A stretch of 63,218 nt of DNA, counting the filler, from Octopus bimaculoides (taxonomy: Eukaryota): assembly GCF_001194135.2 (NCBI RefSeq). It is 7 parts of 7 records of this genome, joined end to end, with 100 filler letters (N's around TTAATTAATTAA, not from the genome) between each part and the next. Parts side by side here need not be neighbours in the genome. Positions count along the whole stretch, not along the records: positions 1 to 8,586 come from NC_069009.1; positions 8,687 to 13,846 come from NC_068987.1; positions 13,947 to 28,444 come from NC_068982.1; positions 28,545 to 34,194 come from NC_068983.1; positions 34,295 to 50,804 come from NC_068985.1; positions 50,905 to 61,832 come from NC_068981.1; positions 61,933 to 63,218 come from NC_069006.1. One strand, given 5' to 3'. Position 1 is the stretch's first letter. Every line of letters begins with the position of its first letter. Below, piece after piece: positions 2,119 to 62,374 of this stretch. Position numbers and translations under genes: made by a program. Under the pieces are notes generated by a model. It saw only the letters and a list, made by a program, of their open reading frames with translations, did not search any database and was not told where the DNA came from.

Positions 2119-2159
2119 GGGCTTGATGACTGCCATGAGGCAGGAAAGTATACTAGTTC
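2119..2159 (+). ncRNA. Minimal type-I hammerhead-like motif with C3U change
   Basis: GGGC-TTGATGA-CTGCC[ATGA]GGCAG-GAAA-GTATAC-TA-GTTC: perfect 5-bp stem II, palindromic stem III AGTATACT, CUA cleavage triplet, stem I GGGC/GTTC with two G-U pairs. Confidence 0.55.
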
Positions 2160-2719
2160 TTATATATTTTATACTCTATATTTAATACTCAATATTTCAT
2201 ATATTCAATAAGACGTTCAATACTTCATTTCATTTTACTATTTATATTATATATTCCATATTCTATATCCCACATTAATTTTATAAGAATATAAATAAAA
2301 CATAAAAACAGACAGAGTTGGAACTCTTTTAAATAATATATATATATATATATATATATTAGTAAAATATATATGCATATATATTAAAACATCAAAGATA
2401 AAACGCAAGACAATAACAATAGAATAATTAACAATATGTAAAAAGGATAGACTTACTTGTGTATACTTTTATATATATATAAGTGTGTTTTTACACACAC
2501 ACACATATATATATGGGTATATGTGAGTCTTCGTATATGCACCTATATATATATATGTATATATATATATATATATATATATATATATATATATATATAT
2601 ATATATATTTATAAAATTCCTAGTTGTTGACGATGGTGATTATTATTATTATTATTTTTAATTATAATAATAATGTTAATATTAATATCTCTCTTGTTAA
2701 TGATAATAATTGTATTTCA

Positions 2720-3500
2720 ACGGGTAAAAATTCCGGGTAGTGTAACGTAAATGTTGTAAGTGGTTGAGAATTCGAAGAAGAAGAAAAAAGGCGATGGATT
2801 GAGCAAAATGGCGGCTATGAAAATTTAAGAACGAAGACTGACCAAACAGACGACTCGATTCGGGTGACGGACTAACGCAAAATATGTATCGATTGTCCTA
2901 GAAATAAAGATATCTAGAACGAGAACGAGGTGTCGATTCAAAATCACCTACAACAACAGCAGCAGCAGTAGTAGTAGTAGTAGTTATTGTTGTAGAGGAA
3001 GAAAAGAAGGAGGAGGAGGAGGAGGAGGAATTGGAAAAAGAAGGAGAAGAAGAAGGAGAATAATAATAAGAAGAAGAAAAAAAGGAGAAGAAGGAGGAGG
3101 GGAGGAATTTGGAAGAAGAAGAAGAAGAAGAAGAAGAAAAAGAAGAAGAAGAAGAAAGGAGAATAATAATAATAATAAGAAGAAGAAGAAGAAGAAGGAG
3201 AAGAAGAAGAAGACGAAGAAGAAGTTTCAAGGATCAAAGAGAACAAGTAGGATATCACTTAGAAGAATGAAGAAAGGATTTGCAAGAATTTTGGCGCGAT
3301 GTAAGTGATGATAATCAAAATAGGGAGCTAAAATAAATCTGGGGATCTAAGGGGTCTTAGTTATTGGAACAATGCTAAATTACTAAATTACTCGACTTTT
3401 CGCATAATTTTGCGTTTTTCGACGACGGTTGCTTTGTTGTATTTTTCTTCTTTGGCAAATCCCTGTTTGAACAATATGGCGAGGAAAGAAATCCATTTGG
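2720..3500 (+). promoter_or_regulatory. Candidate CpG-rich promoter/5'UTR region with YY1-like motifs
   Basis: CpG-rich stretches flank a purine repeat; AAAATGGCGGC at about 2805 and AATATGGCG at about 3473 match the YY1 core; GTAAGT donor-like site at 3301. Confidence 0.3.
2955..3225. repeat. Compound trinucleotide repeat (CAG/TAG/GAG/GAA/TAA)
   Basis: Direct reading; produces the low-complexity ORFs 2898..3230 and 2944..3258. Confidence 0.95.
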
Positions 3501-4483
3501 TTTGGGAAAAGAAAGAAAAAAGACAAAAACAACAAACAAAGTTGTTTTCATTTTCTTTCGGCTGTTCCTTCTTTCTTTCTTTCTTTGTTTTTCTTTTTTC
3601 TTTTCTGTTTTTTTTTTTGCAATTGTTTGTTTGTTTGTTTCTTTGCTTTATTTTTACTTGGATCACAACTTTGCACAACACCTGCTTAAGTTTCGATCCA
3701 GTATCAATAACGCTACTGCTGCTGCCACCACCACTGTTTATTCTNNNNNNNNNNNNNNNNNNNNNNNNNNNNNNNNNNNNNNNNNNNNNNNNNNNNNNNN
3801 NNNNNNNNNNNNNNNNNNNNNNNNNNNNNNNNNNNNNNNNNNNNNNNNNNNNNNNNNNNNNNNNNNNNNNNNNNNNNNNNNNNNNNNNNNNNNNNNNNNN
3901 NNNNNNNNNNNNNNNNNNNNNNNNNNNNNNNNNNNNNNNNNNNNNNNNNNNNNNNNNNNNNNNNNNNNNNNNNNNNNNNNNNNNNNNNNNNNNNNNNNNN
4001 NNNNNNNNNNNNNNNNNNNNNNNNNNNNNNNNNNNNNNNNNNNNNNNNNNNNNNNNNNNNNNNNNNNNNNNNNNNNNNNNNNNNNNNNNNNNNNNNNNNN
4101 NNNNNNNNNNNNNNNNNNNNNNNNNNNNNNNNNNNNNNNNNNNNNNNNNNNNNNNNNNNNNNNNNNNNNNNNNNNNNNNNNNNNNNNNNNNNNNNNNNNN
4201 NNNNNNNNNNNNNNNNNNNNNNNNNNNNNNNNNNNNNNNNNNNNNNNNNNNNNNNNNNNNNNNNNNNNNNNNNNNNNNNNNNNNNNNNNNNNNNNNNNNN
4301 NNNNNNNNNNNNNNNNNNNNNNNNNNNNNNNNNNNNNNNNNNNNNNNNNNNNNNNNNNNNNNNNNNNNNNNNNNNNNNNNNNNNNNNNNNNNNNNNNNNN
4401 NNNNNNNNNNNNNNNNNNNNNNNNNNGTCCGTGAACTAAATTCAAAATTTCGTGTATATATATATATATATATATATATATAT

Positions 4484-4906
4484 AGGCACAGGTATGGCTG
4501 TGTGGTAAGTAGCTTGCTTACCAACCACATGGTTCTGAGTTCATTCCCACTGCGTGGCACCTTGGGCAAGTGTCTTCTACTATAGCCTCGAGTCGACCAA
4601 AGCCTTGTGAGTGGATTTGGTAGACGGAAACTGTGTATTCATATGTGTGTGTGTGTATTTATGTGTGTGTGTGTATTTATGTGTGTGTGTGTATTTGTGT
4701 GTGTGTGTGTTTGTCACCCGCACCATCGCTTGACAACCGATGTTGGTGTGTTTATGTCCTTTAAAACTTAGCGGTTCAGCAAAAAAGACCGATAGAATAA
4801 GTACCAGGCTTACAAAGAATAAGTCCTGGGGGGTCGATTTTGCTCGACAAAAGGCGGTGCCCCAGCATGGCCACAGTCAAATGACAAACAAGTAAAAGAA
4901 TAAAAG
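4484..4906 (+). mobile_element. tRNA-derived SINE, family A, full length
   Basis: Head AGGCACAGG-TGGCTGTGTGG (A box) and GAGTTCATTCCC (B-box-like), internal (TG)n, tail ending AAGTAAAAGA; same sequence recurs more than 10 times in the window. Confidence 0.9.
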
Positions 4907-4923
4907 TATGAAAGAATACACAC

Positions 4924-5014
4924 ACTCGAGTCGATTTGTTCGACTGAAATATCCTTCAAGGCAGTGCCCCAGCATGGCAGCAGTCTAATGACTGAAACAA
5001 GTAAAAGATAAAAG
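4924..5014 (+). mobile_element. SINE family A 3' fragment
   Basis: GTCGATTTGTTCGACT...CCAGCATGGC...AATGACTGAAACAAGTAAAAGA matches the tail of the 4484 copy. Confidence 0.8.
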
Positions 5015-60800: not shown

Positions 60801-61726
60801 TGTGGAAGTGTTTAGTATTTTATACACTTATTTATTTTATTTTATATTTTATGAAAGTAGAAATTAAGTGCTGGTGGTTTTGTCACTATAAATATGACCG
60901 TTTCAATGGCCACTCTTTCATAATCATTGTTTGTAGAGGTAACGAAGTGGTATATCGATGATAAATGAGTACAGAATAATATGTAAGTGGAAATGGTTGT
61001 ATTATCTTTGTAGGAATGTATTCTATTCAGGCGGGTACTAAAATATATAAGATTTTATGCCAATTGTGAAAATATTGATAATTTAGTTCAACTTCAGAAG
61101 TGAGATTGTTCAAAATACAGCAACATTTATCAATTATTATCAATATTGAACGTTTATATAAATTTTATTATCGATCTCTTACACAAGATAATAATATTAT
61201 CGAAAATCGACCAAAGTGCATCATCACATTTTAATTGATTAATCCTGAACTGTGGCAGAGCAATTATTTTAACTTATTAGGTAGAAAGATTAAACTAAAT
61301 TCACCAATATTATATAATGTGGAAAATTTGCTTAATTTCCTTATTACATAAAGTGAACGGTGTTACATATTATTCGTTGTATGAATACATATCTAATTTT
61401 GTTATCTCAAATGAGGGCATAGTGCTTCCCTGTTGGCTGAATGAATCTTAATGAGTGTTTAATTAATATCATTCCCAAGGAAATATCGAAGAAATTGGCT
61501 TGTGTGGAAACGACACCATAAATACGCAGGTATACATGCACGAACTCACAGGCACACACAGGCACAGACACATACACATATATTCATACATTAATACATG
61601 TATATATATATGTGTGTATATATGTATATGCATATATATATATATATTATTATGATTATTATGATTGACCGTTGACTGAACACTATTCAATTTTTTTTCT
61701 CCGTGTTTTTCTCCTTGTCTCCGTAT

Positions 61727-61763
61727 TCTTTCTGTTGAAGAGCGTAGCTCGAAACGTCAAAGA
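61727..61763 (+). ncRNA. Minimal hammerhead fold with U at core position 6
   Basis: TCTTT-CTGTTGA-A-GAGC[GTA]GCTC-GAAAC-GTC-AAAGA: 5-bp stem I, 4-bp stem II, ACGT palindrome, GUC triplet. Confidence 0.7.
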
Positions 61764-61959
61764 CTTTCCGTATTCCCGAGCGTCATACTAATATATACTT
61801 TTGTTATTTACACCACCTGTCCTCGTCTGTTGNNNNNNNNNNNNNNNNNNNNNNNNNNNNNNNNNNNNNNNNNNNNTTAATTAATTAANNNNNNNNNNNN
61901 NNNNNNNNNNNNNNNNNNNNNNNNNNNNNNNNATATATATATATATATATATATATACA

Positions 61960-62129
61960 AATATGACGGGCTTCTTTCAGTTTCCGTCTACCAAATCCAC
62001 TCACAAGGCTTTGGTCGGCTGGAGGCTATAGTAGAAGACACTTGCTCAAGGTGCCACGCAGTAGGACTGAACCCAGAACCATGTGGTTGGTAAGCAAGCT
62101 ACTTACCACACAGTCACACCTGCGCCTAT
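61960..62129 (-). mobile_element. SINE family A 5' half
   Basis: GACGGGCTTCTTTCAGTTTCCGTCTACC...CACACCTGCGCCT. Confidence 0.9.
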
Positions 62130-62310
62130 ATTTTATTTTTCATTTTTATTTTTTGATTCATTGTAAGTCACCTTATTGCTTTAAATGAGATGAATTCTAC
62201 ATTGTTAACCATTTCCTTACGTAGACAAGTAACTCACTAAAACTATCAAAATATCTTCTAATAGAAATATGCAAAACAGATATTAGAAAAACCAGGTACT
62301 TTTTGACAAA

Positions 62311-62374
62311 TCACCTGATGAGACAATTCTGCAGTGAGACACCAGTTCACAATATGTTGAAACAATTGTAGTGA
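62311..62374 (+). ncRNA. Type-I hammerhead, near-canonical
   Basis: TCAC-CTGATGA-GACA...TGTT-GAAAC-AATT-GTA-GTGA; palindrome ACAATTGT; AATAAA at 62377-62382; only G10.1-U11.1 deviates. Confidence 0.8.

What the first reader, a model, noticed from the sequence alone, without database searches (positions are those of the whole stretch)
2119..62374. Eleven minimal hammerheads of several sequence types: a diverse population of short ribozyme retroelements
Seen: HHR folds at 2119(+), 28619(-), 37499(+), 38306(+), 49801(+), 51244(-), 51561(+), 52096(+), 56762(-), 61727(+) and 62311(+). Six have different self-complementary stem III tracts (AGTATACT, ACATATGT, AATATT, ACGT twice, ACAGCTGT, ACAATTGT, i.e. 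seven motifs); several are followed by AATAAA and sit in 150-300-bp segments beside (TA)n, (CA)n or (ATT)n. Established: Penelope-like elements carry minimal type-I HHRs with palindromic stem III thought to cleave as dimers, and non-autonomous HHR retroelements (retrozymes) occur in animals. Inference: this genome hosts many microsatellite-associated non-autonomous HHR families mobilised by PLEs (PLE RT at 13480 and EN at 49441 are in the window). I cannot tell whether they are already catalogued.
Basis: partly seen in the sequence, partly recalled or inferred. Interest (0 to 1): 0.75.

Follow-up and report, generated by a model that had tools for sequence, protein, structure and literature searches.

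The report
Penelope retrotransposon ends carrying hammerheads

Summary
The motifs exist and beat chance (5 strict hits against 0.075 in shuffles). Five of the 11 are decayed copies, recognisable only through their families.

They are not mainly non-autonomous families. The 49801 motif ends the same element as the endonuclease at 49444. The 2119 motif lies behind a Neptune-type endonuclease in 16 of 30 loci. The 28619 and 51244/51561/38306 families adjoin Hydra-clade coding sequence. Links for 61727, 56762 and 62311 are weak. The 37499 family resembles a Penelope end repeat but showed no coding link in 20 loci. Only 52096 and a missed motif at 6808 sit in retrozyme-type units of about 340 bases. 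RNA-seq laid on two families shows host read-through and no pile-up at the cleavage site.

Hammerheads in Penelope end repeats, inverted stumps, tails and retrozymes are all in print. Not found in my searches: family-wide core variants (G3-C8, A6U, an extra base after C3) and a tRNA-like head in a coding element whose 2.1-kb sense strand has no TTTT. This scan noted the tRNA head, G3-C8 and the retrozyme units before on other DNA. Interest 0.4.

The parts
2100..2335 (+). 5'-truncated end repeat (pLTR) of a Neptune-type PLE; hammerhead 2118-2160, 8-nt palindromic stem III; this copy lacks a stem I base
   Evidence: Matches lie 166-585 bp behind the endonuclease, same strand, in 16 of 30 EN loci plus L303; alignment
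6739..6891 (+).
   Evidence: direct repeats 333-353 nt apart in 5 of 20 loci
13453..13845 (+). N-terminal RT fragment (DKG motif) of the Neptune-type lineage that carries the 2119-type hammerhead; cut by the end of the stretch
28575..28780 (-). End repeat of a young Hydra-clade PLE; hammerhead 28619-28702 with long stem II insert and 8-nt palindrome
   Evidence: coding sequence adjoins in L092, L094, L100, L320
31462..32027 (-).
37488..37692 (+). Young 205-bp element between (TA)n with a fixed 5' start; hammerhead 37499-37549 with G3-C8 core, extra G after A9, 6-nt palindrome, U17; 60-nt optional tail
   Evidence: homology to the end repeat and tail of a coding PLE clade by alignment; RNA reads
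38306..38404 (+). Decayed hammerhead (A6G) of the 51561 Hydra family
   Evidence: nhmmer E 8.7e-21 to the family profile
49444..49659 (+). GIY-YIG endonuclease end of a Penelope/Poseidon-type PLE, same element as the 49801 hammerhead
   Evidence: near full-length copy in L373
49692..49884 (+). End repeat of that PLE: tRNA-like head with A and B boxes, (AAT)n, hammerhead 49800-49845 (this copy A6G and G12A; family has an extra A after A9, ACGT, U17)
51243..51346 (-). Decayed hammerhead (G12A) of the Hydra family; head-to-head partner of 51565
51565..51640 (+). Hammerhead of the same Hydra family, with internal deletion, followed by AATAAA, (ATT)n and tail
   Evidence: RT and EN 1.4 kb upstream in L311, inverted junctions in L043 and L053
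52096..52142 (+). Decayed hammerhead (G3 opposite G8) of an old retrozyme-type family with 4-bp stem II and 10-nt palindrome
   Evidence: direct repeats 332-340 nt apart in 3 of 11 loci
56715..56900 (-). End repeat with hammerhead 56762-56809, 8-nt palindrome; likely Hydra clade
   Evidence: one locus with same-strand EN 430 bp upstream, ambiguous (L116)
61663..61832 (+). Very common young element; hammerhead 61727-61763 with A6U core, extra A, ACGT; cut by the end of the stretch
   Evidence: Genome search empty; 15 insertion sites in 1.0 Mb of flanks not selected for it, U6 in 12 of 12 matched copies; older copy follows a Neptune-type EN in L210
62311..62374 (+). Intact-looking hammerhead, 8-nt palindrome, distant relative of the 51561 family
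   Evidence: nhmmer E 2.6e-6 to L033; no genome-wide search made

Best explanation
Most of the eleven motifs are likely the ribozyme-bearing end repeats (pLTRs) left by 5'-truncated insertions of at least four kinds of protein-coding Penelope-like elements, while 52096 and the missed 6808 motif are likely old non-LTR retrozymes moved by the same enzymes. Inferred mechanism: the element's endonuclease nicks (TA)n or other AT-rich DNA and its RT starts inside the RNA at one of two sites just past the pLTR, which gives the optional tail. Copying usually stops early, so only the hammerhead end is left, often with an inverted stump. Copies with a fixed 5' start (37499, and the tRNA-headed copies of 49801) would be run-off copies of an RNA whose 5' end lies in the pLTR. 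The palindromic stem III would let two hammerheads pair into a dimer that cuts slowly or only with protein help; inserted copies come from uncut RNA. Shown here: anatomy, coding links, end distributions. Inferred from the literature: priming, dimer formation, cleavage.
For: 49801: endonuclease directly upstream in the window; 16 of 28 scored copies reach into coding sequence; near full ORF in L373. 2119: behind the endonuclease in 16 of 30 loci. 51561 family: RT and EN upstream in L311, inverted junctions to the ORF in L043 and L053. 28619: four loci with adjoining coding sequence. L311 shows the DKT and CxCX5C motifs that define Hydra (PMC8557442 section 11) and resembles the Hydra proteins printed in its supplement. 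Adjacent inverted partial copies at 9 of 40 scored 37499 loci. Two 3' ends about 60 nt apart, shared with a coding clade, as in PAc (PMC11167929). Stem III changes sequence but stays self-complementary within lineages. Modelled dimers are more stable than two monomer folds for the five motifs with 6-10-nt palindromes (rough energies).
Against: 37499 had no coding link in 20 of 20 loci and starts at one fixed base, so a non-autonomous master is not excluded. Links for 56762 and 61727 rest on one locus each, and 62311 was not searched genome-wide. Genome searches score only the best 40 DNA matches, chosen by likeness to the window copy, so end distributions are biased. Assembly gaps hide many element interiors. 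For the two ACGT motifs the modelled dimer was not more stable than two monomer folds. No cleavage data.
Confidence: 0.85

Rival explanations
1. Most sites are members of non-autonomous short hammerhead retroelements (retrozymes or SINE-like) that use PLE enzymes in trans.
For: True in form for two families: units of about 340 nt with more-than-unit copies. 37499 is young (95-99% identity among the 40 scored copies), 205 bp, with a fixed start and no ORF link. 12 of 28 copies of the 49801 family start within 30 nt of the tRNA-like head, against 2.1 expected from smooth truncation. Short copies far outnumber coding ones.
Against: Coding links for the 49801, 2119, 51561 and 28619 families. No head-to-tail unit repeats in 20 loci of 37499, 20 of 28619 or 30 of 51561 (a lower bound, since that self-comparison also missed some inverted copies). 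RNA reads show 80-81% run-on into unlike flanks, no unit-length back-joint and no end pile-up for 37499.
Confidence: 0.12
2. In these elements the hammerhead fold is kept mainly as an RNA-pairing or protein-binding scaffold rather than as a cutter: the palindrome would hold two RNAs together for a dimeric RT, which could also produce the head-to-head insertions.
For: Family-wide core departures (A6U in 12 of 12; extra base after C3 in about 10 loci; an A opposite G at the base of stem II in the 56762 family; U17 in four families) while palindromy is kept. In PAc, hammerhead catalysis is not needed for insertion in vitro and the protein is predicted to be a dimer (PMC11167929). This can hold together with the best explanation.
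Against: The 3-8 pair covaries three ways (C-G, U-A, G-C), which points to selection on the active conformation. Naiads lack canonical hammerheads yet make inverted insertions (PMC8557442 section 6). One Hydra family has an imperfect palindrome.
Confidence: 0.15
3. The motifs are chance folds in AT-rich, microsatellite-rich DNA.
For: Loose descriptors give up to 3 hits in single shuffles; Rfam finds none of the 11.
Against: Strict hits are about 60-fold above shuffles. Family alignments restore the core and stems where the window copy is damaged.
Confidence: 0.01

Closest known systems
Minimal type-I hammerheads of metazoan PLEs (Cervera and de la Pena 2014, PMC4209133; parts 1-2 of 4 read)
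   Same: Type-I motif in pLTRs, short stem I, extra base between 9 and 10.1, palindromic stem III, many divergent families per genome, mostly single motifs from truncated PLEs, opposite-strand pairs 100-700 bp apart, U3-A8 variant
   Different: G3-C8, A6U and an extra base after C3 as family-wide forms, and stem II inserts of 35-75 nt, were not in the parts read
PAc, Poseidon of the green anole (Frangieh et al. 2024, PMC11167929; parts 1-2 of 4 read)
   Same: Hammerhead overlapping the likely ORF start, optional tail from two internal RT start sites, AT-rich targets, no RNA-seq read ends at the cleavage site
   Different: No tRNA-like head reported in the parts read; C3G/G8C there is an engineered partial rescue, here G3-C8 is natural
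Hydra-clade PLEs including Hydra-1_Obim (Craig et al. 2021, PMC8557442; sections 6 and 11, passages, supplement hits)
   Same: DKT and CxCX5C motifs, canonical hammerhead, (TA)n targeting, inverted stumps and tails; an octopus member with a hammerhead is catalogued
   Different: The hammerhead listed for Hydra-1_Obim differs from those of the window's families, which have long microsatellite-rich 3' UTRs
Metazoan non-LTR retrozymes (Cervera and de la Pena 2020, PMC7229834, passages and section 14; Li, Clavereau and Pollet 2026, bioRxiv 10.64898/2026.07.22.740005, parts 1-3 of 5)
   Same: Non-coding units of about 340-350 nt with one type-I hammerhead (mussel: 350-390 bp), more-than-unit copies, co-occurring with PLEs; proposed to be non-autonomous PLE derivatives
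   Different: The two families here are old (75-80% between copies), have 10-nt palindromes, and showed no locus with two intact hammerheads and no sign of circles
Schistosome Sm-alpha hammerhead SINEs (review PMC6765202, passages) and TRIMp3 Helenus (PMC10886601, passages)
   Same: A tRNA-type Pol III promoter joined to a hammerhead, or placed in a terminal repeat
   Different: Those are non-coding; here the tRNA-like head sits in the end repeat of a protein-coding PLE

Membership tests
EN+ Penelope-like elements | RT with C-terminal GIY-YIG endonuclease joined to the hammerhead repeat | tested here: met
   49801, 2119, 51244/51561 and 28619 families; Pfam RVT_1 and GIY-YIG hits below curated cut-offs
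EN+ Penelope-like elements | Same link for the 56762, 61727, 62311 and 37499 families | tested here: inconclusive
   One locus each for 56762 and 61727, distant likeness only for 62311, homology but no ORF in 20 loci for 37499
EN+ Penelope-like elements | 5' truncation, adjacent inverted stump, optional tail, microsatellite targets | tested here: met
Hydra clade | DKT in place of DKG, CxCX5C linker, CxxC and CxH near the EN end | tested here: met
   DKT, CxCX5C and CxxC in L311; CxxC and CxH in L092; compared by eye; no tree built
Neptune, Penelope/Poseidon and Nematis clades | Phylogenetic placement of the RT | not tested
   Labels rest on motifs only: linker Zn finger present in the 2119 lineage, absent in the 49801 lineage. 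The Nematis label for the 37499-related clade is recalled and comes from no call
Non-LTR retrozymes | Non-coding units of 150-400 nt with one type-I hammerhead in head-to-tail repeats | tested here: met
   For the 6808 and 52096 families: 5 of 20 and 3 of 11 loci with unit-spaced direct repeats. Not met for 37499, 28619, 51561
Non-LTR retrozymes | At least two consecutive intact hammerheads (active copy by the definition of Li et al.) | tested here: inconclusive
   None noticed in the 31 loci fetched, not counted systematically; only best matches to old copies were sampled
Non-LTR retrozymes | Abundant circular RNA | tested here: inconclusive
   Three RNA-seq runs, about 6% of each read, laid on one old unit: all reads under 95% alike, dominant read types with a damaged hammerhead, no pile-up at the site; such libraries can lose small circles
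Hammerhead ribozymes | Site-specific self-cleavage as monomer or dimer | not testable with these tools
   No read-end pile-up, as also reported for PAc
tRNA-derived SINE (49801 head) | A and B boxes at tRNA spacing, copies starting at the head, no Pol III terminator | tested here: met
   A box at position 8; ARAGORN calls the head at relaxed score in 3 of 30 loci; 9 of 28 copies start within -12..+4; no TTTT in 25 of 25 copies
tRNA-derived SINE (49801 head) | Non-autonomous, separate from its coding partner | tested here: not met
   16 of 28 copies continue into the endonuclease sequence

The most novel reading that the evidence does not exclude
The Penelope/Poseidon-type element ending at 49884 is a protein-coding retrotransposon read by RNA polymerase III from a captured tRNA promoter in its end repeat: its 2.1-kb sense strand has been purged of TTTT terminators, the ORF starts just behind the head and runs through the hammerhead, and internal priming sheds thousands of SINE-like leader copies. 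Beside it, sister families carry natural hammerhead cores (G3-C8 with U17, A6U, an extra base after C3) that still work as dimers.
Probability: 0.3. Interest if true: 0.72.

Novelty: new variant of a known kind. Interest (0 to 1): 0.4.

Why it matters
As a population the finding is expected: PLE-rich animal genomes hold thousands of such motifs, and one per 5 kb in this packed window reflects many PLE families inserting into microsatellites. Its value lies in a ready set of natural variants. Family-wide G3-C8, A6U and C3-insertion cores with palindromes of 4-10 nt allow a direct test of an open question: whether PLE hammerheads are kept for cutting or for pairing and protein binding. A coding element with a tRNA-type promoter and no TTTT would, if Pol III transcription is shown, blur the line between SINEs and autonomous retroelements.

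Tried and rejected
Rfam scan: no hammerhead call at any of the 11 sites. ARAGORN on the window at default settings: no gene. Genome search with 61655-61830: empty, even the self-match was missing, which the tool ascribes to very common words; copies were taken from flanks instead. The look-up of sequencing runs: no RNA holder listed among indexed runs; the three raw RNA runs were added by species label and may not be the window's species.

An HDV-like ribozyme setting the fixed 5' end of 37499: rejected by inspection, the GG after the candidate P1 is missing. Pol III transcription of 37499, 61727, 28619 and 56762: rejected, they hold 2-5 T4 runs. Folding z-scores were not informative (retrozyme unit -2.0, 37499 element +0.5; crude shuffles). 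The EN upstream of 56762 in L321 belongs to another family with its own end. The EN before 61727 in L327 is separated by a gap and (TA)n. The 37499 copy in L245 is a separate insertion. The regular expression for the 52096 family matched only 1 of 11 loci and was replaced.

Lunse et al. 2017 on dimer cleavage (PMC5785218) is not held and was not read; it is known here only through the review PMC6765202. Supplements of the bioRxiv preprint could not be seen; they may list further families. Repbase and Dfam could not be searched, so the families may be catalogued there.
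Full report
Setting. The window is a pack of seven stretches, 28-35% GC, rich in microsatellites and gaps. The genome has 2.34 Gb in 145,327 contigs. Its repeats and the likeness to published octopus PLE proteins suggest an octopus; this is an inference.

Observation. 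All 11 coordinates mark hammerhead-like folds. A strict descriptor gave 5 hits against 0.075 in 40 shuffles; one allowing a core change and an extra base after A9 gave 4 against 0.25 in 100 shuffles. Six of the 11 pass one of them; five are decayed.

Approach. I searched the genome with seven of the elements (an eighth, came back empty) and with four PLE protein pieces, and fetched 107 longer stretches. DNA searches score only the 40 best candidates (first-look candidates: 4868, 275, 818, 1623, 1663, 830 and 11) and return 11-30 loci, so all counts are samples biased towards the window copy.

49801. The endonuclease at 49444-49659 and the hammerhead are one element. Of 30 loci, 28 could be scored (L019 and L028 lacked a forward head): 16 extend into the coding sequence, up to 1.36 kb, and 12 start within 30 nt of a tRNA-like head, 9 of them within -12..+4, against 2.1 expected from smooth truncation (the query contained the head, which favours such copies). 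The head has an A box at position 8 and a B box. A reading frame opens behind the head and runs through the hammerhead into the tail, as in PAc. No TTTT occurs between head and tail in 25 of 25 copies, nor in 2,098 bases of the near full-length copy L373 (3.9 expected by base shuffling, P 0.02; 2.3 expected in 1,944 coding bases by codon shuffling, P 0.07). All nine coding stretches from other PLE families had 1-6 runs. One short copy (L009) has a T5 run. This is suggestive, not decisive.

2119. The window's RT piece at 13453 belongs to a lineage with DKG and a linker Zn finger. The 2119 element lies 166-585 bp behind its endonuclease in 16 of 30 loci, and in L303 at 97% identity. Within the lineage stem III reads as 6-, 8- or 10-nt palindromes, and a sister subfamily has a different 8-mer. 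About 10 loci carry an extra base between C3 and U4.

51244, 51561, 38306, 62311. The first two form a head-to-head pair; 38306 matches the family profile at E 8.7e-21 and 62311 is a distant relative. L311 holds RT and endonuclease 1.4 kb upstream, linked by a microsatellite-rich UTR shared with other copies; L043 and L053 join an inverted end repeat to the ORF. The protein has the Hydra motifs. Stem III is an imperfect palindrome.

28619 and 56762. 28619 is young (94-99% among the 40 scored copies) with two tail lengths; four loci join it to Hydra-type coding sequence, one across an assembly gap. 56762 has the same anatomy and at least 870 bp of shared upstream sequence but only one ambiguous coding link.

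61727. Fifteen insertion sites in 1.0 Mb of flanks not selected for it suggest tens of thousands of copies, roughly. U replaces A6 in 12 of 12 matched copies. An older copy continues directly from a Neptune-type endonuclease in L210.

37499. A 205-bp element, 95-99% identical among 40 scored copies, with one fixed start, (TA)n flanks and inverted stumps at 9 of 40 loci. The core is G3-C8 in 20 of 20 loci, with an extra G and U17. It aligns by eye over hammerhead, downstream motif, pLTR end and 60-nt tail with the end repeat of a coding clade whose core is C3-G8; BLAST did not detect this likeness. No coding partner was seen. A passage in PMC3884650 notes that an engineered G3-C8 is more active with G17 than with C17, so the absence of C17 here may matter.

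6808 and 52096. Both families have 6-bp stem I, 4-bp stem II and 10-nt palindromes, and the same sequence before and after the motif. Unit-spaced direct repeats (332-353 nt) occur in 5 of 20 and 3 of 11 loci. Copies are 75-80% alike. This is the retrozyme layout. Earlier scan notes on 340-350-nt units in this genome prompted the test.

RNA. Three raw RNA-seq runs (about 6% of each read) gave 905-1216 reads on 37499: 80-81% run on into unlike sequence, both strands are read alike (strandedness unknown), joints are mostly inversions at the 5' start as in the genome, and no place has an end pile-up. On one old retrozyme unit all reads were under 95% alike and dominated by a few copies with a damaged hammerhead; head-to-tail joints also stand in the contigs of run X15 (kind not on record), and nothing piles up at the cleavage site. 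These are weak negatives for circles.

Mechanism. PAc starts reverse transcription internally at two sites that bound the tail, prefers AT-rich targets, uses uncut RNA, and has a protein-assisted hammerhead that is dispensable for insertion in vitro (PMC11167929). That accounts for the tails, the hammerhead lying 40-250 nt inside the 3' end, and the truncated stumps. Fixed-start short copies follow if priming behind the upstream pLTR runs off the RNA's 5' end (inference). Palindromic stem III supports dimers (PMC4209133); rough energies favour the dimer for 6-10-nt palindromes but not for ACGT, where no monomer stem III can form at all.

Novelty. Hammerheads in pLTRs, multiple families per genome, inverted pairs, retrozymes as PLE derivatives and an octopus Hydra element with a hammerhead are in print. 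Ten full-text searches found no report of octopus retrozymes, of a tRNA head in a coding PLE, or of natural G3-C8 (one hit, an engineered variant; Perreault et al., PMC3088659 section 8, lists U3-A8 and A6C). No search was aimed at A6U or the C3 insertion. Repbase, Dfam, subscription journals and the preprint's supplements were out of reach. This scan has noted the tRNA-headed element (7 notes), the G3-C8 core in octopus-like genomes (5 notes) and the PLE-end and retrozyme readings before; those notes are unchecked and not independent support. Verdict: ordinary as a population, with a few variant features worth a bench test; interest 0.4.

Noticed in passing
window 5953-6085 and 6597-6733: About 135 bp of flanking sequence is duplicated at 90-98% identity, 644-651 nt apart, around the inverted stump next to the 6808 element; possibly a duplication made during insertion.
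   Followed up: partly
window 34074 (-): Strict descriptor hit with U3-A8, 8-nt palindrome and only a 3-bp stem I; may be chance.
   Followed up: no
window 15302 (+) and 15317 (-): Overlapping core-like motifs on both strands around a short palindrome, next to (CA)n and (TG)n.
   Followed up: no
L171:4490-4800 and L172:1200-1650: The subfamily closest to the window's RT has a different 8-nt palindrome and an A inserted after C3 in its hammerhead.
   Followed up: partly
L241-L270, L285, L287: A coding PLE clade with odd-length AT-only stem III (5 nt, central base variable) or an 8-nt AT palindrome, all with U17.
   Followed up: partly
L335, L338, L339, L343, L346, L354 about 650-750 bp behind the endonuclease: A further Hydra family with its own hammerhead-like end, not among the window's families.
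   Followed up: no
window 51690-51800, 62440-62480, 2300-2330; tail of the 28619 family: Tails of several families share a short purine-rich motif resembling GAGTT(C)CTG or GAGTTGGAAC; may be the RT binding or start signal.
   Followed up: no
window 61961-62130: A very common 170-bp repeat, present in dozens of fetched loci, probably one of the octopus SINEs.
   Followed up: no
window 24545-24916 (+) and 49190-49275 (+): Fragments that look like DNA-transposon transposases (labels recalled, not tested).
   Followed up: no
window 45342-46036 (+) and 57869-58147 (-): Decayed LINE-type RT fragments (recalled likeness, not tested).
   Followed up: no
window 29605-29885 and 3034-3224: Long trinucleotide arrays, (TCA)n/(AGT)n and (GAA)n.
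   Followed up: no
L140:1521-1637 in RNA reads: A 115-base skip bounded by AG..AG in all three RNA runs removes the hammerhead from one transcribed copy; may be a genomic deletion.
   Followed up: no
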